Sequence record: MT682711.1
Reading direction: 5' to 3' (one strand)
Origin: Escherichia phage vB_EcoM_FB
Length of the DNA: 64,000 bases
The translations under genes and the position numbers were made by a program. Below the pieces are notes generated by a model. That model ran no database searches. It was not told the DNA's origin and was given only the letters and a program-made list of their open reading frames with translations. Positions 17,976 to 54,838 of the stretch are shown in pieces; position 1 is the first letter of the stretch; each line of letters begins with the position of its first letter.

Positions 17976-18116
17976 TTATTCCTCGCCTTCATGTTTATGA
18001 GCAATTTCTTCGAATTCGCTGTCACAGTCTAAACAGGTTGCGTTGTCCCAAGCATCAAATACTGCCTGGTCTTCACAGACCGAACAACCACATACTACAC
18101 ATTCAAATTCTTCCAT
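17976..18116 (-). CDS. small zinc-ribbon protein
   Basis: 46 aa ORF translated by hand (MEEFECVVCGCSVCED...CLDCD); butt-joined to both neighbours. Confidence 0.45.
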   Translation of the reverse strand: MEEFECVVCGCSVCEDQAVFDAWDNATCLDCDSEFEEIAHKHEGEE

Positions 18117-44881: not shown

Positions 44882-45118
44882 TTAAATTCCTAATATTTGT
44901 TTGAATGCTTCAGAACGGTCAAGTTCTGTTCCATATTTTTCCATGTGCTCATATTTTAAATTATACACATCAGATAGTATATTATTATACGAGCGAGTTA
45001 AAGCAGATTTCAATACTGAATAACTGTCCGGAAATTTACCATGCTCTTTATAATAAGCTAGAGTAAGTTCTCGGACTGCCTTATCGGCAGCCTCTACATA
45101 TTCTTTACGCTTTGCCAT
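44882..45118 (-). CDS. hypothetical protein
   Basis: Track ORF trimmed to internal ATG (MAKRKEY...). Confidence 0.45.
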
Positions 45119-45416
45119 TTTCGTCTCGCTCAAATCGGTGTTTACAATGGCGGCATTTGTAACGAAGATTACTAGTCCGCCAATGGACCAATTGAACCTG
45201 TTCTGTGCCGCACTTAAGACAGTTAGGAACATTCTTAGAAGCTTGTTCTCGTCGTGCGACCATAGCCATTACAGCATCCCAATTAACGGCATCACCATAA
45301 TCATCACAACCATGAATTTTACCAACCAATTCAACTTCAACATCCTCGGCTTTAATAAATTTCAATAAACCAGTATTAGATGCTGAAGCAATATCTTCAG
45401 CTAAACGTTGTTTCAT
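45105..45416 (-). CDS. zinc-finger protein
   Basis: 103 aa; C-terminal CLKCG...CRHCKH. Confidence 0.5.
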
Positions 45417-46423
45417 TTCAGCAGCTCCAGAGCCTGTTCAAGACGGTCTAAACGATTGGTAGACTCTTCCAAAAGTTTTTTGGCAGCAGTATATTGTCCG
45501 GCCAGTTTTTTGTTGATAGCAAGGGCATCTTTATACGCTTTTTCTAAGGCAACGACTTCTGGTAACTTGGATTTAGTAATTGGTGTAGGGGCCATGATAG
45601 GGCCGTTCAAGTCGTTAATCAAATCTTCTAATGTAGCAGGCTCTTTATCAGTGTTCACAATTTCCTCACATTTTTCTTGGTAAATTTCAGCGTCAGTTTT
45701 TGGAACGGTACATTTGATTTCACGGACTGTTACTAAGACTTCATATCCTTTCCAGCCTAAGTGGTGTTTAACTTCTTGGGTCTCATATTTCTCTACGGTA
45801 TCCATCAGAGCTAAAGCCTGTTCGATAGTATTCAAGGTATCGTAAGCAATATCTTGATACTTTACAACTTCCACATCATCTTTAGGTTTCCTATTAGGTG
45901 ACCAAATAACAGAAATAATAGCTTTTCCTTTATAACTATTTGTTTTAATCATGCAATTAGCCATCGGGTGAATAGTACGACAATCACCGGAAACTATAGT
46001 TTTAGAGGCCGCTTTGAGAATTAATGCAGAGTTAGCCTTGAATTCGCTAACCCAACGTTGCGGAAATAAACTATTAGGGTCCATACCTTTAATTTTGATA
46101 TAACCTTTTATGGTATCACCAAACCATTTGTAGCTAACAACACGGTTGGAACCTGGATATTTCTCTTTGCCAAACTCTGAAAGGATGTCCTTATTGACCA
46201 GTCGCGAAAGCAGTCGAGAACCTTTAAATGTTTTAATGATATCATGAACGCACAAACGGCCTGCAATCTTTTCGATTTCGGCTTTGAAACAGCGCGATAA
46301 TGCATCATCAATTTGGTCGACCCATTTATTGATATTAGAAACTATTACCACATATGGGGTTAATGGAGGGGTATTGGCAGTGATATACGTAGTAAAGGCA
46401 TTAATGTATTCAGTACGAGTCAT
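45413..46423 (-). CDS. hypothetical protein
   Basis: Start moved to ATG at 46423 (GAGGAGAA SD) because the promoter -10 lies between the two candidate ATGs. Confidence 0.55.
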   Translation of the reverse strand: MTRTEYINAFTTYITANTPPLTPYVVIVSNINKWVDQIDDALSRCFKAEIEKIAGRLCVHDIIKTFKGSRLLSRLVNKDILSEFGKEKYPGSNRVVSYKWFGDTIKGYIKIKGMDPNSLFPQRWVSEFKANSALILKAASKTIVSGDCRTIHPMANCMIKTNSYKGKAIISVIWSPNRKPKDDVEVVKYQDIAYDTLNTIEQALALMDTVEKYETQEVKHHLGWKGYEVLVTVREIKCTVPKTDAEIYQEKCEEIVNTDKEPATLEDLINDLNGPIMAPTPITKSKLPEVVALEKAYKDALAINKKLAGQYTAAKKLLEESTNRLDRLEQALELLK

Positions 46424-49400: not shown

Positions 49401-50396
49401 TTATTTCAGAAGTGTAACTTCGGCAATTTCAGACCAATCATTAGAATCGGTAGCAATGAAATCAGCCAAATAGAGGGCGGTACGCAATGAAACATTACGC
49501 AAACGTGATACATTAGCCTTCATCCATGAGAGTGCCTGGTAAGTCTGAGCGTCAGTCAGACCACGTTTCTGCATCATATCTGTAGACAGAATAACATCTT
49601 CAACACGAACCATAATCTCTTCGTTAGAGTGAACGCCTAAGTCAAGATAAACGGAACGAGATACTAAAGCCTGAAGGTGTGGAGCAAGTTTAGTACCACG
49701 TTCTAATTCACGGTCAATATCAACGTTAGTGATGAATACGATGGTGCCTTCATACTCAAATTCTTTATCGATATTTTTATCATCAAGATAAGAACTTGAA
49801 GTGCTCCAGCATACCTTACGTTTCTCACCGGTGTCCAATGCCGCTTTCAGAAGGTTCAGGATATCCATATCAGAGAATACATCAACATCATCAATAAGAA
49901 GAACACTATTAGGGCCGCGGTTATTCCAAAGCTGCTCGTAAAGACCGATTCCACTAATCTTTCCGTTGATTGATTTATATTCGATAGTTTCATTTTCGTG
50001 GGCATTCTGTAATGCTTTATCCAATGAATATGTTTTACCAATACCTGCTGCACCAGAGATGATAAGGGAACGAATTTTACCATCGATGATTCCATTAGTC
50101 ATCATATTCATTACTTTAAAACGTTTGTTGATGCGGTGTTTCATTTCATCCTGGGATTCGGTTACGACTGCAGGGGTTTCAACACCTTCAGTCTCGATAT
50201 CAGATTTGAACACCCATACACCACGCTCTACGCCATCAATCTGAACAAAGACCTTACCATCGCCGAGGTGGGCTTCTGATTCATGAATTTTATTAGGGAA
50301 CCAGGTTTTACCTGAACTCATGAACGTACCAGAGATTTCATTACCGCGGTAGATGCCTTTGTTGATTTTGATAGTTAACATTTTATTATCCTTCAC
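49401..50396 (-). CDS. AAA-type ATPase
   Basis: 331 aa; Walker A GAAGIGKT, Walker B LLIDDVD. Confidence 0.6.
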   Translation of the reverse strand: MKDNKMLTIKINKGIYRGNEISGTFMSSGKTWFPNKIHESEAHLGDGKVFVQIDGVERGVWVFKSDIETEGVETPAVVTESQDEMKHRINKRFKVMNMMTNGIIDGKIRSLIISGAAGIGKTYSLDKALQNAHENETIEYKSINGKISGIGLYEQLWNNRGPNSVLLIDDVDVFSDMDILNLLKAALDTGEKRKVCWSTSSSYLDDKNIDKEFEYEGTIVFITNVDIDRELERGTKLAPHLQALVSRSVYLDLGVHSNEEIMVRVEDVILSTDMMQKRGLTDAQTYQALSWMKANVSRLRNVSLRTALYLADFIATDSNDWSEIAEVTLLK

Positions 50397-50411
50397 TCAT
50401 TTGTTTTGATA

Positions 50412-50445
50412 GGTCTATCTTAACACGTTTAATCAGGTTGTAAAC
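50412..50445 (-). promoter_or_regulatory. early promoter (GTTTAC, TTAAGAT, AGACCTATCAAAAC)
   Basis: gtaaac 50440-50445; rc 50417-50422 TAAGAT. Confidence 0.5.
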
Positions 50446-50463
50446 AATTTTTTGCACTAAACC

Positions 50464-50488
50464 CAAAAAAGGAACCCGAAGGTTCCTA
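50464..50488 (-). terminator. intrinsic terminator (UUCG hairpin plus U6)
   Basis: aggaacc-cgaa-ggttcct at 50470-50487, A6 at 50464-50470. Confidence 0.7.
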
Positions 50489-50681
50489 AATTGCACTCCA
50501 AAAATTATGGAATCTGATATAGTTTATAGCCAAGTTAACACAGCGTCTTATCTGCTTAGACGTGGGCTTACACACATACTTAAAATTGATTCGCCTACCG
50601 GTTTCTCTACAAACTACTTCAAGATACCAACGGCAGGTTTTATGAGGTCTTCCGTATGACAAGAAGACGTTGACTTCTTCT

Positions 50682-51692
50682 TTAGCGGTAATAAGCGTTG
50701 TGGTTGTCAAGGTATACCTCTTCGACAAATTTGTCCCAGAACTTCATATCTACCTTATCAGGCATACCGTTCTTGGCAGCCCAGACGGCATTGGTTTCGA
50801 CTTCATCGACGATTGCTTCAAGTTCAGCTTGTACATCTTTAAAAGCGTGTAGACCTTGTTTGATTTCAAGGATAAATGGAGCCGTACGTAAAGGATATTG
50901 AAGGTCACCGGTCATATAAATTTCCTTCAACTGGTATCCAGCACGATAAGCATGGCTCAGCGCTTTCCAGTCAATACCTTCGTTAGCTTCGGCCTTACGA
51001 GCGCGTTCACCATATTCGGCGTCCAGTTTATTCAGAGATTGCTTAAGCTCGATTAATGACAAAGTAGTTTGGTATTTGCGACCGAGAACAGTATAGAACG
51101 TCTGTGGACCAGTTTTCTCATGGTTATGGAATACCCATTCGCAGAATTCGTTCTCTGGGAGACGATGCTTAATATCTTCAACTTTAGTGCGACGTTGTTT
51201 AGTCGTACCATCTTCTTGGTAGTCAACCCACTGTTCAGGAATCTGGTTAACAATTGCCAGTACACCACGTAATGCAGCTAAACGAGAACCCTTAACACCA
51301 TACTTAGAAGCTTGCTTGCGGACGTACCCCAAATATGCTTTCATGTTAGTTGTATAAAACCGGGAACGGTTATCCTGGATAAACTTCCATACATCTGGTA
51401 AATCGGATTTGACTACCAGGTTAGCCGGAGTGTGAATCATGTCCAGAGCAACAGTTTCACCGTCAGCGGCCAGTTTAAAGAAATATTTCAGACTATAAAG
51501 TTCATGGTCAACATCGTCTTTAGTGTTTTTGGATGCCGTGTTATTCGTGTTCAAGTTGGTATGGTTCATGGCCGTACCTAACAGAATATTACGCGGATGT
51601 GGAACAAAGATTTCCTTAAAATCGACATCAGATTCCGGAGTACTTGTTCCATAAAGATGGCTACCGAAGTAGCCCTTCATAACTGTTCTCAT
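50682..51692 (-). CDS. polymerase-beta-superfamily nucleotidyltransferase-like protein
   Basis: 336 aa; N-terminal GSHLYGTSTPESDVDF (GS...DxD) signature. Confidence 0.5.
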   Translation of the reverse strand: MRTVMKGYFGSHLYGTSTPESDVDFKEIFVPHPRNILLGTAMNHTNLNTNNTASKNTKDDVDHELYSLKYFFKLAADGETVALDMIHTPANLVVKSDLPDVWKFIQDNRSRFYTTNMKAYLGYVRKQASKYGVKGSRLAALRGVLAIVNQIPEQWVDYQEDGTTKQRRTKVEDIKHRLPENEFCEWVFHNHEKTGPQTFYTVLGRKYQTTLSLIELKQSLNKLDAEYGERARKAEANEGIDWKALSHAYRAGYQLKEIYMTGDLQYPLRTAPFILEIKQGLHAFKDVQAELEAIVDEVETNAVWAAKNGMPDKVDMKFWDKFVEEVYLDNHNAYYR

Positions 51693-52141
51693 TTCTTCGC
51701 CTCAAAATGGATTACCGGACACATCTTAGATTTACGAGCTTTGATATATTGAATGAAAACGTTTTCTTTAGTTTCTCGGCCTTCACGCTCAGCTTTAATT
51801 CGTTCCCATTCTTTTTCTTCTTTACGTAAATCGTACCAGGACCAGAAATTCATTAGAGCATACACTAAACCAAATGCTACCGCCAGAATAAGGGCCATTG
51901 TAGCTAGTCCTAAAATAAACCCCAACCCTAAACCAACAGGAATACTTAATACAAAGAACTGGTCTAATACGCCAGCACCTGCAACAGTTAAGGCGAAGAT
52001 TGTACTACCTACAAGCACAGAACAAATAAAGCAGGCCCATACAATTTTCCAGAAGTAAGCACATAAAGAGTGTGGGCGAGAATAATGGCTATAAAAACGG
52101 TCGTGTAATTTAGTGTGCCAAGAGTTCGTATTGATAATCAT
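51689..52141 (-). CDS. membrane protein
   Basis: 150 aa, multiple hydrophobic segments. Confidence 0.55.
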   Translation of the reverse strand: MIINTNSWHTKLHDRFYSHYSRPHSLCAYFWKIVWACFICSVLVGSTIFALTVAGAGVLDQFFVLSIPVGLGLGFILGLATMALILAVAFGLVYALMNFWSWYDLRKEEKEWERIKAEREGRETKENVFIQYIKARKSKMCPVIHFEAKK

Positions 52142-52151
52142 AATATTTTCC

Positions 52152-52706
52152 TTAAGGGTTCATAGTTGGGATAATAGTGTTCAGGTATTTTACCAGAACT
52201 TTTAATTCGTCTTTAGTGAATACTACTTCAGCTTCACCATCGTGGGTCTGGATGATAGATAACATATCGCGACCTTGATATTGGTAGACACTGAATTCGG
52301 TATTATAATCGCCTTCTTCATCACCTTCAAAGGTTTCGCTTGAATGCATAATAGCATCACAACCAGGGATTTTCCACTCGAGCTCAGGTACACACTCTTC
52401 TTGGAAGAGTTTAAAAATTTTCTCTAAAAATTCTGAACGGTTTTTAATAGATAAACAAGCCCATTCGGTTTCCAGATTAAAGCCATTTTCACCTAGATAC
52501 AACCAGGCCACAACTTCATCGTTAATTTTAAAGACACGATTATGAGTTCGAATATACTGCTCTGCATCAATAACAGACAACTCGTACAGGTTCTGAATAT
52601 CTTGAATGGTCAAAACGACTGTATCATCTTCTTGTTTAAGCACGATTGCATTATCAATTACATCGGCAGTCAGGTCACCAAACAACCCAGATTTTTCAAT
52701 AATCAT
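52152..52706 (-). CDS. hypothetical protein
   Basis: 184 aa ORF. Confidence 0.55.
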   Translation of the reverse strand: MIIEKSGLFGDLTADVIDNAIVLKQEDDTVVLTIQDIQNLYELSVIDAEQYIRTHNRVFKINDEVVAWLYLGENGFNLETEWACLSIKNRSEFLEKIFKLFQEECVPELEWKIPGCDAIMHSSETFEGDEEGDYNTEFSVYQYQGRDMLSIIQTHDGEAEVVFTKDELKVLVKYLNTIIPTMNP

Positions 52707-52718
52707 TTTAATTTCCTC

Positions 52719-53009
52719 TTAACGGTTATGTTTTAAAATACTATAAAGAGCTTCTACTTGGCTTGCATCCAGGTAAATAACATCATCATCTTGCTCAATG
52801 GAAATACCACCAGTATTACCTGCAACAAAATTGCATTCGCACACTTCAACGGGACGGTATACGTCACCAACTGGATGCTCAGGCTCCAGAACAATCACAC
52901 CATTTTCAGAATTACCACTTGGGTCGTATAACATTACAGTTTCCTCGCTAACCATGAAAAGAATAAACCAATTAAAACAGGCCCTACAGCCATTATTAAC
53001 CAAGCCCAA
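52719..53009 (-). CDS. hypothetical protein
   Basis: 96 aa ORF. Confidence 0.45.
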   Translation of the reverse strand: MGLVNNGCRACFNWFILFMVSEETVMLYDPSGNSENGVIVLEPEHPVGDVYRPVEVCECNFVAGNTGGISIEQDDDVIYLDASQVEALYSILKHNR

Positions 53010-53025
53010 GGTTCAAGATAGTAAA

Positions 53026-53283
53026 TCATCTCATGCTCCTGTGCCAACAATTACGTGGCTCACGTTTAAAAATTTCATCATGCATTGATTGACAACCAAC
53101 ACAATATATCACACCCTTGATAGCTTTACGTCGTGCTTCAGGAATCTCTTCATCGCAATCAAAGCAATATTCAGCGGATTCACGTTCAATAGCCACTTGC
53201 TTACGAGCGTGTACAATAGCGGCTTGTACAACCGCTTCCATTTCGAGCTGTTCGGCTCCGTCCTTTGCAAAACCGACAGCCAT
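53026..53283 (-). CDS. TraR/DksA-family C4 zinc-finger protein
   Basis: 85 aa; CFDC-x17-CVGC with EIPEARRKAI between the Cys pairs. Confidence 0.6.
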   Translation of the reverse strand: MAVGFAKDGAEQLEMEAVVQAAIVHARKQVAIERESAEYCFDCDEEIPEARRKAIKGVIYCVGCQSMHDEIFKREPRNCWHRSMR

Positions 53284-53465
53284 TATGCTTTCAACTCATT
53301 AAGATACTCAACCAAGGCTGCTTTAGAGTTAGCCAAATCTCGTTTACATTGCTCTATTCCGGAATATGAATAGCCTTCACAATGTTCTACTGCAATATCA
53401 TAAGAATCACGTTCAATAGCAGTAGCGAGTTTAAGGATTTGTTCAATCTGTTCAGTAGTTAACAT
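53283..53465 (-). CDS. hypothetical protein
   Basis: 60 aa ORF. Confidence 0.45.
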   Translation of the reverse strand: MLTTEQIEQILKLATAIERDSYDIAVEHCEGYSYSGIEQCKRDLANSKAALVEYLNELKA

Positions 53466-53469
53466 ATTA

Positions 53470-53706
53470 TCACCAGTATTTGCTAATGGTAGAAATTAAT
53501 TCTTGGACCTGGGCTGTATTCAGTTTACATCCACAACCCTTTAATGTGTCTTTAAGGAGCCACGGTTCCTTGAGCTCGTCCTTTTCTAGACGAATTCTGT
53601 ATCCTCGATAATCGGCGAAGATACTTCGGTCGTCGAATATCTTAATCTCAAGGATACGACCGTTGATTTCATATTCTAACGAAACCGTAGTACTTGTAAG
53701 TTTCAT
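53470..53706 (-). CDS. hypothetical protein
   Basis: 78 aa ORF with own promoter. Confidence 0.5.
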   Translation of the reverse strand: MKLTSTTVSLEYEINGRILEIKIFDDRSIFADYRGYRIRLEKDELKEPWLLKDTLKGCGCKLNTAQVQELISTISKYW

Positions 53707-53725
53707 TCTGTTCTCCTCATTAGTT

Positions 53726-53763
53726 GATAGGTCTATAGTATCATGTTCCTAGAGGATGTAAAC
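53726..53763 (-). promoter_or_regulatory. early promoter (GTTTAC, TACTAT)
   Basis: gtaaac 53758-53763; atagta 53735-53740. Confidence 0.55.
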
Positions 53764-53771
53764 ACCTAAAC

Positions 53772-53801
53772 GAAAAAAGGTCCCACCGAAGTGAGACCTT
53801 T
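53772..53801 (-). terminator. intrinsic terminator (UUCG-type hairpin plus U tract)
   Basis: aaggtcccac-cgaa-gtgagacctt with A6 on plus flank. Confidence 0.6.
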
Positions 53802-53803
53802 GA

Positions 53804-54190
53804 TTATTCTAACGTTAGCAAATACTTGGTCTGGTAAAAGACACCAGTGATATCGTCCAAAGTCGACTGGATGGCCTTAGGAAGATTTTTGTAGATTTTA
53901 TCAGATGCTTTAATAAGTTCATCAAGAAAATCTATAGGGTCTTTAGGCAGTTCTGAAGCAGACGGCAGTGATGCTTTATATTCTTTGCCACTGAATCCAA
54001 GATATTGCTCACTAAATTGGTCCAGTGGTCCTTGAACTTCTACGTAATAGAAGTCATACGCTTTGTGTCTTGCATAGCTTTTGGTTTCTAAATGGGCTGA
54101 CTTAAAATAGGCTAAAGAAACCAACAGCCAGCCAATATAAGAATCTACTTCAGTCCCTCGACTAAGTACGAAATCATTGAATTTCATCAT
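53804..54190 (-). CDS. hypothetical protein
   Basis: 128 aa ORF. Confidence 0.55.
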   Translation of the reverse strand: MMKFNDFVLSRGTEVDSYIGWLLVSLAYFKSAHLETKSYARHKAYDFYYVEVQGPLDQFSEQYLGFSGKEYKASLPSASELPKDPIDFLDELIKASDKIYKNLPKAIQSTLDDITGVFYQTKYLLTLE

Positions 54191-54467
54191 CTACCTTCAT
54201 TAGTTTAACGTATCGTTCTCCGACCTCCCGACCTTCAATCGAGCAAGACACTATTGTATTGCAATTTGAAAGTTTCCAAGAAGCAGTTAAATAAGCCCAG
54301 TAGTCTTTAGAGGCCTTTACGCTAGGTTTACTCATTTGCGCATAAACTGGCATCGCACTACTAGCAAAGGCATCCATCAATTTAGGATCGGATTTGTTTG
54401 CTAGTGAAACTGTTGGGCTTAAACATCCGATCATAAGGATACAAGCCACTGTACGGAAAATACCCAT
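54174..54467 (-). CDS. secreted or periplasmic protein
   Basis: 97 aa with N-terminal signal peptide. Confidence 0.5.
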   Translation of the reverse strand: MGIFRTVACILMIGCLSPTVSLANKSDPKLMDAFASSAMPVYAQMSKPSVKASKDYWAYLTASWKLSNCNTIVSCSIEGREVGERYVKLMKVDDEIQ

Positions 54468-54556
54468 ACAAAAGTCCTTTGTTGTTTTATACTATTTGCC
54501 TTTCGGCCTTAACCGATAGCGATTACCAAAAGCTAAAGCTCTACGGTTAGTATTAT

Positions 54557-54564
54557 TATTTATA
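54557..54564 (-). promoter_or_regulatory. late promoter-like TATAAATA
   Basis: rc of tatttata at 54557-54564; about 90 nt from the next start, so weak. Confidence 0.3.
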
Positions 54565-54838
54565 GCTTTTTAAGCTTACGACAATAAGAATAGAACACGT
54601 CGTTAAAATTATATTCAACCCAATTCCTCTGTATAGGCGAGGTAATGGAAAGCATATAATGCGCTTTAATTAAATCCATCCCATTTTTATTAGGACATTC
54701 TTTATTATTAGCATTATACGTCGCTGCTACAACCTCTATCTCTCTTTTGTAAGCCACATCATCCATGATAGGCGAAAGAACAATATAAGAAATAGCCACA
54801 GCGAACGCTAGAATTAAAATCTTTGAATTTAGGTCCAT
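54560..54838 (-). CDS. membrane protein
   Basis: 92 aa with N-terminal hydrophobic segment. Confidence 0.5.
   Translation of the reverse strand: MDLNSKILILAFAVAISYIVLSPIMDDVAYKREIEVVAATYNANNKECPNKNGMDLIKAHYMLSITSPIQRNWVEYNFNDVFYSYCRKLKKL

What the first reader, a model, noticed from the sequence alone, without database searches (positions are those of the whole stretch)
53026..53283. TraR/DksA-like C4 zinc-finger protein
The 85 aa ORF has the exact CxxC-x17-CxxC spacing with EIPEARRKAI between the cysteine pairs. That is the signature of DksA/TraR proteins, which bind the RNA polymerase secondary channel. A phage copy could redirect host transcription and is not a canonical T4 gene as far as I recall.
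Basis: partly seen in the sequence, partly recalled or inferred. Interest (0 to 1): 0.45.

Follow-up and report, generated by a model that had tools for sequence, protein, structure and literature searches.

The report
T4-like phage TraR/YbiI zinc-finger protein
A small, probably early gene of a T4-like coliphage encodes a zinc-finger protein of the DksA/TraR family (closest to E. coli YbiI) that probably binds the host RNA polymerase. The same gene has already been recorded in many T4-like phages, though not in T4 itself, so the finding is correct but ordinary.

Summary
Window 53026..53283 (minus strand) is an 85-aa ORF with CFDC-x17-CVGC and EIPEARRKAI between the cysteine pairs. It passes Pfam PF01258 (37.5 bits, cut-off 24.9) and matches PHROG 54 "DksA-like zinc-finger protein" over residues 12-77. 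Its closest solved relatives are E. coli YbiI (39% identity, E 6e-15) and F-plasmid TraR (33%, E 3e-9). The AlphaFold model has TraR's layout: N-helix, Zn ribbon, C-helix.

The gene is under strong purifying selection (dN/dS 0.05-0.13). It lies 480 nt downstream of a T4-type early promoter, in a chain of stop/start-overlapping small genes between rI.-1 and nrdC.11. T4 has no copy.

TraR's RNA-polymerase-contacting residues (P45, E46, R48, R49, K50) are conserved. The catalytic-site motif DxxDxA is only FxxDxA. The C-terminal tail (PRNCWHRSMR) differs from both TraR and YbiI.

The most likely function is a ppGpp-independent RNA polymerase secondary-channel factor that diverts host transcription. 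This is inferred, not shown.

It is not new. [quoted passage not shown] Interest is low to moderate.

The parts
53026..53283 (-). CDS, 85 aa, DksA/TraR-superfamily C4 zinc-finger protein of the YbiI-like branch
   Evidence: ORF list and sequence. Pfam PF01258 37.5 bits against a cut-off of 24.9. PHROG 54 E 3e-20. YbiI 2KGO E 2.9e-9 and TraR E 5e-5. dN/dS 0.05-0.13.
53248..53283 (-). Codons 1-12, MAVGFAKDGAEQ: invariant N-terminal tip with FxxDxA (F5, D8, A10) where TraR has DxxDxA
   Evidence: Residues 2-12 are identical in all 21 clade members; one has GTG (V) at codon 1. pS 0.60 and pN 0.000 over all pairs. D8 to first Cys is 32 residues, against 31 in YbiI and 31 for TraR D6 to C37. The AF2 helix starts at residue 8 and residues 1-6 have low confidence.
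53197..53262 (-). Codons 8-29: predicted long N-terminal helix, the counterpart of TraR_N (residues 2-27), which fills the secondary channel
   Evidence: AF2 model, helix H8-29, pLDDT about 80. Foldseek match to TraR in 6N57_M, probability 1.0, TM 0.47/0.55. TraR domain limits come from PMC6970531.
53092..53166 (-). Codons 40-64: C4 zinc ribbon CFDC-x17-CVGC. It contains I47-P48-E49-A50-R51-R52-K53, matching TraR I44-P45-E46-A47-R48-R49-K50
   Evidence: Regex hit and coordinates. C40, C43, I47, P48, R51, R52, G57, C61 and C64 are invariant in 79 homologues. The roles of the TraR residues come from PMC6970531 and PMC9239242.
53029..53070 (-). Codons 72-85, FKREPRNCWHRSMR: clade-specific, nearly invariant C-terminal tail. 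It replaces the YNRRGSKDSQLR tail of YbiI-type proteins and is absent from TraR
   Evidence: pS 0.52 and pN 0.013. It is not a frameshifted version of the YbiI tail. AF2 confidence here is low, about 55.
53735..53762 (-). T4-type early promoter-like site GTTTACA-N16-(TG)A-TACTAT, 480 nt upstream of the gene. It is the only strong promoter candidate for the operon
   Evidence: Consensus scan, sequence. The same GTTTACA-N-TAnnnT element is found upstream of the orthologue in 16 of 17 T4-like loci. No late (TATAAATA) motif and no full MotA box lies between it and the gene. Function not shown.
53776..53801 (-). Intrinsic-terminator-like hairpin (11-bp stem, T run) just after rI.-1. It separates the rI operon from the operon that holds the zinc-finger gene
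53283..53465 (-). Upstream gene, 60 aa, MobD.3-like (DUF7438). Its stop overlaps the zinc-finger start (TAATG)
   Evidence: T4 mobD.3 is the counterpart.
53470..53706 (-). First gene of the putative early operon, 78 aa, unknown function (phrog_10363)
52934..53029 (-). Downstream gene, 31-aa hydrophobic peptide (phrog_12165). Its start overlaps the zinc-finger stop (ATGA), and its Shine-Dalgarno AGGAG lies inside codons H81-R82-S83
52719..52934 (-). Next downstream gene, 71 aa, DUF7189. Its start overlaps the previous stop (TAATG)

Best explanation
The ORF is a real, protein-coding, probably early-transcribed accessory gene of a Dhakavirus-like T4-type phage. It encodes an 85-aa single-helix plus zinc-ribbon protein of the DksA/TraR superfamily, on the YbiI-like branch.

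The most likely mechanism follows F-plasmid TraR and phage lambda Orf73. The zinc-ribbon domain (I47-P48-E49-A50-R51-R52-K53) would dock on the beta-prime rim helices and the Si3 insertion at the mouth of the RNA polymerase secondary channel. The N-terminal helix (residues 8-29) would run down the channel and place the invariant tip MAVGFAKDGA, with D8, next to the active site. This would change open-complex kinetics without ppGpp, inhibit host promoters with short-lived open complexes (rRNA and r-protein promoters), and free RNA polymerase for phage promoters early in infection.

Shown here: the gene, the family membership, the fold prediction, conservation of the TraR contact residues, purifying selection, the genomic slot and the promoter-like site. 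Inferred: RNA polymerase binding, the effect on transcription, and early timing.
For: Family: Pfam PF01258 scores above its cut-off. PHROG 54 E 3e-20. The NCBIfam YbiI-type model matches residues 1-71. YbiI E 6e-15 and TraR E 3e-9.

Fold: the AF2 model has H8-29, a zinc ribbon and H62-71. The top Foldseek hits are YbiI 2KGO and TraR in RNA polymerase complexes 6N57 and 5W1S.

Contact residues: TraR P45 is needed for binding. R48 contacts the rim helices. E46, R49 and K50 form the Si3 interface (PMC6970531 and PMC9239242). They correspond to P48, R51, E49, R52 and K53 here. I47, P48, R51 and R52 are invariant in 79 homologues.

Selection: the N-terminal tip shows pN 0 against pS 0.60. That fits a tip that must fit a conserved target.

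[quoted passage not shown] YbiI rescued dksA auxotrophy when overexpressed, reported as data not shown (PMC2613031).

Expression: a T4-type early promoter lies upstream and recurs in relatives.

Host range: homologues occur in phages of Proteobacteria only (Klebsiella, Escherichia, Acinetobacter, Erwinia, Aeromonas and others). This is the phylum whose RNA polymerase carries the Si1 and Si3 insertions that TraR uses.
Against: The DxxDxA motif, required for TraR, Orf73 and DksA activity, is incomplete. The first Asp is replaced by an invariant Phe (FAKDGA). Lambda Orf73 D3N was much less active, and X. bovienii Gp34, which lacks D3, was less active.

[quoted passage not shown] An N-terminal extension in VHML Orf8 was linked to lower activity.

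The scores fall below the curated NCBIfam cut-offs for TraR (52.2 < 59.7) and YbiI (75.7 < 96). TraR P43, whose P43A substitution impairs RNA polymerase binding, is E46 here.

Not all C4 DksA/TraR-type proteins act on RNA polymerase (PMC9239242). No member of the YbiI branch has published biochemistry, and Blankschien et al. thought YbiI more likely related to iron metabolism. The conserved tail has no counterpart in TraR.
Confidence: 0.55

Rival explanations
1. It is a YbiI-type protein whose main target is not the RNA polymerase secondary channel. The zinc ribbon would be a scaffold, and the two hyper-conserved termini (MAVGFAKDGAEQ and PRNCWHRSMR) would bind another conserved host component, such as a nucleic acid, the ribosome or a metal-homeostasis factor.
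For: The closest relative is YbiI, whose function is unknown. YbiI sits in the fiu-ybiX-ybiI iron-related operon. The most constrained parts of the protein are the termini, which differ from TraR. DxxDxA is incomplete. The literature notes that C4 finger proteins of this family need not act like DksA.
Against: The TraR residues that contact the rim helices and Si3 are conserved and invariant. YbiI reportedly rescues dksA auxotrophy. The fold matches TraR as seen in its RNA polymerase complex. No alternative target is suggested by any data here.
Confidence: 0.25
2. It binds the secondary channel but acts as a plain inhibitor or competitor rather than a TraR-like allosteric regulator. It could block DksA and GreA/GreB access, or plug the active site with the aromatic F5 tip, contributing to host shut-off.
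For: Phe replaces the first Asp of DxxDxA, and the N-terminus is 2 residues longer than in TraR, whose S2 is already 4.3 A from the Mg. Binding residues are conserved while the 'activity' motif is altered. DksA tip aspartates are needed for function but not for binding. Rnk is a precedent for a channel binder that only competes.
Against: This is pure inference. The phage itself depends on host RNA polymerase throughout infection, so a general plug would be harmful unless it were weak or transient.
Confidence: 0.15
3. It is a spurious or decaying ORF, a remnant of a horizontally acquired bacterial ybiI gene with no function.
For: T4 lacks it. A truncated chimeric remnant exists in some Mosigvirus phages. 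The gene lies in a hyperplastic region of T4-type genomes.
Against: dN/dS is 0.05-0.13, with dS up to about 2. The gene is intact in 676 phage records across many genera and keeps its genome slot. All zinc ligands are invariant. Its start and stop are translationally coupled to the neighbouring genes.
Confidence: 0.02

Closest known systems
Orthologues already in databases: Escherichia phage JS98 orf95, VR5 gp098, EAWsc9 'dksA', Citrobacter phage Moon zinc finger protein (Edwards et al. 2015, PMC4319498)
   Same: Same gene at 76-97% amino-acid identity. Same slot between rI.-1 and nrdC.11. Same N-terminal tip and same C-terminal tail. [quoted passage not shown]
   Different: Nothing of substance. 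The window copy differs by a few conservative substitutions.
E. coli YbiI (b0803; PDB 2KGO; NCBIfam NF008243)
   Same: Best sequence and fold match: 39% identity over residues 1-69, E 6e-15. Same length class. Same N-terminal MAxG[FW]AxD.A tip and the same spacing from that tip to the finger.
   Different: The C-terminal tail is PRNCWHRSMR instead of the near-universal YNRRGSKDSQLR. The score is below the equivalog cut-off. YbiI is chromosomal and sits in an iron-related operon. Its function is unknown.
F-plasmid TraR (PDB 5W1S, 6N57)
   Same: Same three-part architecture: N-helix, C4 zinc ribbon, C-helix. The IPEARRK segment that contacts the rim helices and Si3 is identical. 33% identity, E 3e-9. 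Foldseek probability 1.0.
   Different: FxxDxA instead of DxxDxA. The N-terminus is 2 residues longer. P43 is not conserved. There is an extra 14-residue conserved tail. The score is below the TIGR02419 cut-off.
Phage TraR homologues lambda Orf73, P2 Orf82, VHML Orf8, VP882 Orf61/TraR_VP882 (PMC9239242; bioRxiv 10.64898/2026.07.27.740977)
   Same: Small phage-encoded members of the same superfamily, expressed early in lytic growth. They are shown to bind RNA polymerase, inhibit rRNA promoters and raise phage yield.
   Different: Those come from temperate phages and belong to the TraR branch with DxxDxA. This one is from a virulent T4-type phage and belongs to the YbiI branch. No fixed partner gene like QisA is conserved next to it.
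E. coli DksA
   Same: Shares the C4 finger (31% identity over 36 residues, E 0.002) and, presumably, the binding site on RNA polymerase.
   Different: It has no coiled-coil domain and no ppGpp-contacting residues, and it is about half the length. The NCBIfam DksA model scores 14.3 against a cut-off of 105.

Membership tests
DksA/TraR C4 zinc-finger superfamily (Pfam PF01258) | CxxC-x17-CxxC zinc finger | tested here: met
   C40, C43, C61 and C64 with exactly 17 residues between the pairs. All four are invariant in 79 homologues.
DksA/TraR C4 zinc-finger superfamily (Pfam PF01258) | Profile score at or above the Pfam gathering threshold | tested here: met
   37.5 bits against 24.9, E 2.4e-9. 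Also PHROG 54 'DksA-like zinc-finger protein', E 3e-20.
TraR-type regulators (TIGR02419; functional definition of Gopalkrishnan et al. 2017/2022) | Curated subfamily score cut-off | tested here: not met
   TIGR02419 scores 52.2 bits against a cut-off of 59.7. The TraR equivalog NF010268 scores 31.8 against 108.
TraR-type regulators (TIGR02419; functional definition of Gopalkrishnan et al. 2017/2022) | Architecture of about 70-90 aa: single N-terminal helix, globular zinc domain, C-terminal helix | tested here: met
   The AF2 model has H8-29, a ribbon at 30-61 and H62-71, mean pLDDT 76.8. Foldseek matches TraR 6N57_M with probability 1.0 and TM 0.47/0.55.
TraR-type regulators (TIGR02419; functional definition of Gopalkrishnan et al. 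2017/2022) | N-terminal DxxDxA motif that reaches the active site | tested here: not met
   Only FxxDxA is present (F5-A-K-D8-G-A10). The second Asp and the Ala are in register by spacing to the finger: 32 residues, against 31 in TraR. The first Asp is an invariant Phe.
TraR-type regulators (TIGR02419; functional definition of Gopalkrishnan et al. 2017/2022) | Globular-domain residues that contact the rim helices and Si3 (TraR P45, E46, R48, R49, K50) | tested here: met
   P48, E49, R51, R52 and K53 are present. I47, P48, R51 and R52 are invariant in the family. TraR P43 is not conserved; it is E46 here.
TraR-type regulators (TIGR02419; functional definition of Gopalkrishnan et al. 2017/2022) | C-terminal helix that contacts the beta-lobe Si1 insertion | tested here: inconclusive
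   A helix is predicted at 62-71. Its sequence is poorly conserved, and a 14-residue tail that TraR lacks follows it.
TraR-type regulators (TIGR02419; functional definition of Gopalkrishnan et al. 2017/2022) | Direct binding to RNA polymerase and ppGpp-independent regulation of rRNA promoters | not testable with these tools
   This needs biochemistry. The only hint is the report that YbiI rescues dksA auxotrophy, given as data not shown (PMC2613031).
YbiI family (NCBIfam NF008243 / PRK11019) | Equivalog score cut-off | tested here: not met
   75.7 bits against a cut-off of 96, although the match spans residues 1-71 of 85.
YbiI family (NCBIfam NF008243 / PRK11019) | N-terminal MAxG[FW]AxD.A tip | tested here: met
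   MAVGFAKDGA here against MASGWANDDA in YbiI.
YbiI family (NCBIfam NF008243 / PRK11019) | Invariant C-terminal tail YNRRGSKDSQL[RK] | tested here: not met
   It is replaced by EPRNCWHRSMR. Of 80 viral loci, 58 carry the YbiI tail and 21 carry this variant. The variant is not produced by a frameshift.
DksA proper (NCBIfam NF033459) | N-terminal coiled coil with DxxDxA at its tip, about 150 aa, ppGpp site-2 residues | tested here: not met
   The protein is 85 aa and has no coiled coil. The model scores 14.3 against 105. BLASTP similarity is confined to 36 residues of the finger.

The most novel reading that the evidence does not exclude
The YbiI-type proteins of virulent T4-like and jumbo phages may form a mechanistically distinct class of RNA polymerase secondary-channel effectors. 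They would dock like TraR through the conserved IPEARR surface. They would use an invariant aromatic/acidic tip (G-F-A-K-D-G-A) and a second invariant element, the C-terminal tail (PRNCWHRSMR here, YNRRGSKDSQLR elsewhere), to do something TraR does not do. Possibilities include plugging the active site, excluding DksA and Gre factors, or contacting a second target. This would be the first secondary-channel factor described for a T4-type lytic phage and would give a function to the orphan bacterial YbiI family.
Probability: 0.2. Interest if true: 0.55.

Novelty: already known. Interest (0 to 1): 0.22.

Why it matters
T4-type phages are the textbook case of stepwise takeover of host RNA polymerase (Alt/ModA/ModB, Alc, AsiA/MotA, gp33/gp55). 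None of those factors uses the secondary channel. Many relatives of T4, though not T4 itself, carry this TraR/YbiI-like gene under strong purifying selection, so it is presumably a useful accessory takeover function.

Showing that it binds RNA polymerase would do three things. It would extend the 2022 TraR-homologue work from temperate to virulent phages. It would explain a widely conserved 'hypothetical' gene in therapeutic-candidate coliphages and Klebsiella and Acinetobacter phages. It would give the first functional handle on bacterial YbiI.

As a genome-scan finding it adds nothing that is not already in annotations and the literature.

Tried and rejected
- A remnant of the gene in T4. 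tblastn of the syntenic mobD.1-tk region gave a best E of 2. A family-HMM search of all six frames of the whole T4 genome gave a best E of 0.81. There is none; T4 mobD.2 and mobD.2a are unrelated.
- The unusual tail as a frameshifted YbiI tail. Neither alternative frame of either gene gives the other tail. Rejected.
- A fixed partner gene, like QisA for TraR_VP882. The immediate neighbours (MobD.3-like, 31-aa peptide) are conserved only in the closest genera. Rejected.
- A defence or anti-defence assignment. There is no PADLOC hit.
- RNA features. The window has no tRNA and no Rfam family. No late promoter or full MotA box lies upstream of the gene.
- A diverse TraR-branch profile, to settle the register of the N-terminal motif by profile-profile alignment. 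The TraR query returned a single partial relative. The lambda Orf73 query returned only 97-100% identical copies. This was abandoned, so the register rests on spacing to the first Cys and on the YbiI alignment.
- Literature on YbiI. A whole-word search returned mostly ytterbium(II) chemistry. Among the 25 papers listed, the only functional statement about YbiI was the 2009 data-not-shown remark.
- The antisense plus-strand ORFs over the gene (53089..53373 and 53117..53302). These were not tested separately. They are treated as by-products of the minus-strand gene, because purifying selection supports the minus-strand frame.

Full report
**1. Observation**

It runs from ATG 53283-53281 to TGA 53028-53026 and is 85 aa. 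The finger is C40-FD-C43, then 17 residues (DEEIPEARRKAIKGVIY), then C61-VG-C64, at window 53092..53166.

It is not a chance cysteine pattern:
- Pfam zf-dskA_traR scores 37.5 bits against a gathering score of 24.9.
- PHROG 54 'DksA-like zinc-finger protein' matches residues 12-77, E 3e-20.
- The NCBIfam YbiI-type model NF008243 matches residues 1-71.
- A family HMM finds exactly one copy in the six-frame translation of the window, E 7.8e-41.

**2. Genomic context**

The window belongs to a Dhakavirus-like T4-type phage. The 3.5 kb around the gene is 92.8% identical to Escherichia phage VR5 and 88-89% identical to JS98 and JS10.

All genes in this region are on the minus strand. In transcription order they are:
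- tk, an ORF of 92 aa, rI and rI.-1
- a strong hairpin terminator at 53801-53776
- a T4-type early promoter-like site GTTTACA-N16-TACTAT at 53762-53735
- a 78-aa ORF, then MobD.3-like (DUF7438), then the zinc-finger gene
- a 31-aa hydrophobic peptide, DUF7189, MobD.1 (y05I-like), a membrane protein and NrdC.11

This order rests.

Three successive gene junctions overlap stop and start: TAATG, ATGA and TAATG. This is the usual T4 arrangement for translational coupling. No late promoter motif and no full MotA box lies between the early-type promoter and the gene. The same GTTTACA-N-TAnnnT element recurs upstream of the orthologue in 16 of 17 T4-like loci. Early transcription is therefore likely, but it is inferred.

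**3. A real gene under selection**

Against 17 gapless orthologues, dN/dS is 0.05-0.13 while dS reaches 0.4 to about 2.

Constraint is strongest at the two ends:
- Residues 1-12 (MAVGFAKDGAEQ): pS 0.60, pN 0.
- Residues 72-85 (FKREPRNCWHRSMR): pS 0.52, pN 0.013.
- The middle of the protein: pN/pS 0.23-0.46.

In 79 homologues the four cysteines, I47, P48, R51, R52 and G57 are invariant.

**4. Family placement**

- The closest solved protein is E. coli YbiI (2KGO): phmmer E 2.9e-9, BLASTP 39% identity over residues 1-69, E 6e-15.
- F-plasmid TraR follows at 33% identity, E 3e-9.
- DksA shares only 36 residues of the finger, E 0.002.

An AlphaFold2 model built on 79 sequences has mean pLDDT 76.8. 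It shows a long helix at 8-29, a zinc ribbon, a helix at 62-71 and a low-confidence tail. Foldseek against the PDB returns YbiI first, then TraR as seen inside RNA polymerase complexes (6N57, 5W1S), then Chlamydia and E. coli DksA.

**5. Distribution and prior knowledge**

tblastn finds the protein in 676 phage records. The hosts include Klebsiella, Escherichia, Acinetobacter, Erwinia, Enterobacter, Aeromonas and others. Many records are already annotated 'DksA-like zinc-finger protein', 'ybiI' or 'dksA'.

Specific prior records:
- JS98 orf95 was annotated as similar to P. aeruginosa PA4870.
- EAWsc9 calls the gene dksA.
- Nolan et al. 2006 listed a dksA/traR Pfam hit in phage 44RR.
- Edwards et al. 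[quoted passage not shown] The Moon protein is 76% identical to this one.

I confirmed the absence from T4. The syntenic mobD.1-tk region has no match. The whole 168,903-bp genome in six frames gives nothing better than E 0.81.

In T4-like phages of several genera the gene keeps the same slot between rI/rI.-1 and nrdC.11. Its immediate neighbours change, so it has no fixed partner gene.

**6. Comparison with the TraR mechanism**

[quoted passage not shown] The globular domain sits on the beta-prime rim helices. E46, R49 and K50 contact Si3. P43 and P45 are needed for binding. R48 binds the rim helices. The C-helix contacts beta Si1. The N-terminal DxxDxA motif is required for activity (PMC6970531, PMC9239242).

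Here the segment I47-P48-E49-A50-R51-R52-K53 reproduces TraR I44-P45-E46-A47-R48-R49-K50. Only P43 is not conserved; it is E46 here. This is the best sequence-level argument that the protein docks on RNA polymerase.

The tip is different. The hexamer in register is FAKDGA in the phage protein, WANDDA in YbiI and DEADEA in TraR. The register comes from the distance of D8 to the first Cys: 32 residues, against 31 in YbiI and 31 for TraR D6 to C37. The second Asp and the Ala are kept, but the first Asp is an invariant aromatic residue, and the chain is 2 residues longer at the N-terminus.

Three published results bear on this. Lambda Orf73 D3N is much less active. Gp34, which lacks D3, is less active. 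An N-terminal extension in VHML Orf8 was linked to lower activity. So TraR-like binding is likely, while TraR-like activity is uncertain.

The only experimental hint for the YbiI branch is that YbiI rescues dksA auxotrophy when overexpressed. That was reported as data not shown, and the authors favoured an iron-related role.

**7. The tail**

Among 80 viral loci, 58 end in YNRRGSKDSQL[RK], as bacterial YbiI does. Twenty-one end in (E/N/D)PRNCWHRSMR (or GVRNCWHRSMR). That clade includes the window, other Dhakavirus and Gaprivervirus phages, Moon-like, Edwardsiella and Yersinia T4-like phages, and jumbo phages of about 350 kb.

Neither tail is a frameshifted version of the other. TraR has no such tail. 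Lambda Orf73 ends in QRGSK, which MAFFT aligns with the RRGSK of the YbiI tail. No function is known for it.

**8. Verdict**

The most likely function, at about 0.55, is a ppGpp-independent secondary-channel factor that helps redirect host RNA polymerase early in infection. The rivals are:
- a YbiI-type protein with another target (0.25)
- a channel-binding competitor or plug rather than an allosteric regulator (0.15)
- a decaying ORF (0.02, effectively refuted)

The gene and its 'in T4-like phages but not T4' distribution are already in annotations and the literature, so novelty is 'already known' and interest is low to moderate. The one open and testable point is whether the YbiI-type tip and tail give a mechanism different from TraR.

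Noticed in passing
L007:1159-1326 (Escherichia phage ST0, Mosigvirus); also hits H47 and H57, clusters P0050/P0052/P0059/P0067/P0083, and phrog_25948: Some Mosigvirus phages carry a 55-aa chimeric ORF. About 27 N-terminal residues resemble the start of the DUF7189 gene. They are fused to the last 28 residues of this zinc-finger protein (VIYCVGC...RNCWHRSMR), without the first CxxC. The 87-nt tail segment is 83/87 identical to the window and all 4 differences are synonymous. The same 31-aa peptide and DUF7189 genes follow it. This marks a recombination breakpoint inside the gene and a recently shared module between genera. PHROGs treats these remnants as a separate family.
   Followed up: partly
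L030-L088 (viral contigs) and E. coli ybiI, L003:4191-4457: The C-terminal tail YNRRGSKDSQL[RK] is essentially invariant in 58 of 80 phage loci and in bacterial YbiI proteins that are otherwise only 36-57% identical to the window protein. It is more conserved than the zinc finger's surroundings. No function is known. Lambda Orf73 ends in a similar QRGSK.
   Followed up: partly
L016, L020, L027, L029 (contigs of 109-366 kb; jumbo phages such as slurp01, UE-S1 and PHA46): Jumbo phages of about 350 kb carry the same clade-specific version (MAVGFAKDGAEQ ... RNCWHRSMR) at 60-65% identity, in an unrelated gene neighbourhood. This suggests exchange of the gene between T4-like and jumbo myoviruses.
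   Followed up: no
window 52719-53706 (-): Three successive gene junctions overlap stop and start (TAATG at 53283, ATGA at 53026-53029, TAATG at 52934). The Shine-Dalgarno AGGAG of the 31-aa peptide gene lies inside codons 81-83 of the zinc-finger gene.
   Followed up: yes
window 53735-53801 (-): A perfect 11-bp hairpin terminator (AAAGGTCTCAC-TTCG-GTGGGACCTTT plus a T run) lies directly after rI.-1. A T4 early-type promoter (GTTTACA-N16-TACTAT with TG) follows 14 nt later. Together they form a compact terminator-promoter junction.
   Followed up: partly
window 53804-54190 (-) and T4 rI.-1: RefSeq and PHROGs name rI.-1 (DUF5856) 'starvation-inducible transcriptional regulator'. Pfam only calls it a domain of unknown function. 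The name may be an over-propagated annotation, and it sits next to a gene that could really relate to stringent-type control.
   Followed up: no
window 45105-45437 (-), motif at 45144-45221: This is a second zinc-ribbon-like ORF, CLKC-x18-CRHC. It has a close counterpart in T4 (CPEC-x18-CRHC, by coordinates within nrdC.2). It is unrelated to the DksA/TraR family (HMM E 0.16).
   Followed up: no
window 17976-18116 (-), motif at 18024-18101: A 46-aa ORF, MEEFECVVCGCSVCEDQAVFDAWDNATCLDCDSEFEEIAHKHEGEE, has a CxxC-x18-CxxC pattern and extra cysteines. It may be a small zinc-binding protein. It was not examined.
   Followed up: no
L001 (phage VR5) 5085-5822: VR5 has an intron-like or homing-endonuclease gene inserted next to tk, annotated in L001. 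This 738-bp gene lies within the part of VR5 matched by the window query (record 50214-54593, about 880 bp longer than the query, joined from 3 pieces), so the window probably lacks it. This is typical of the mobile-element variability of the region.
   Followed up: no
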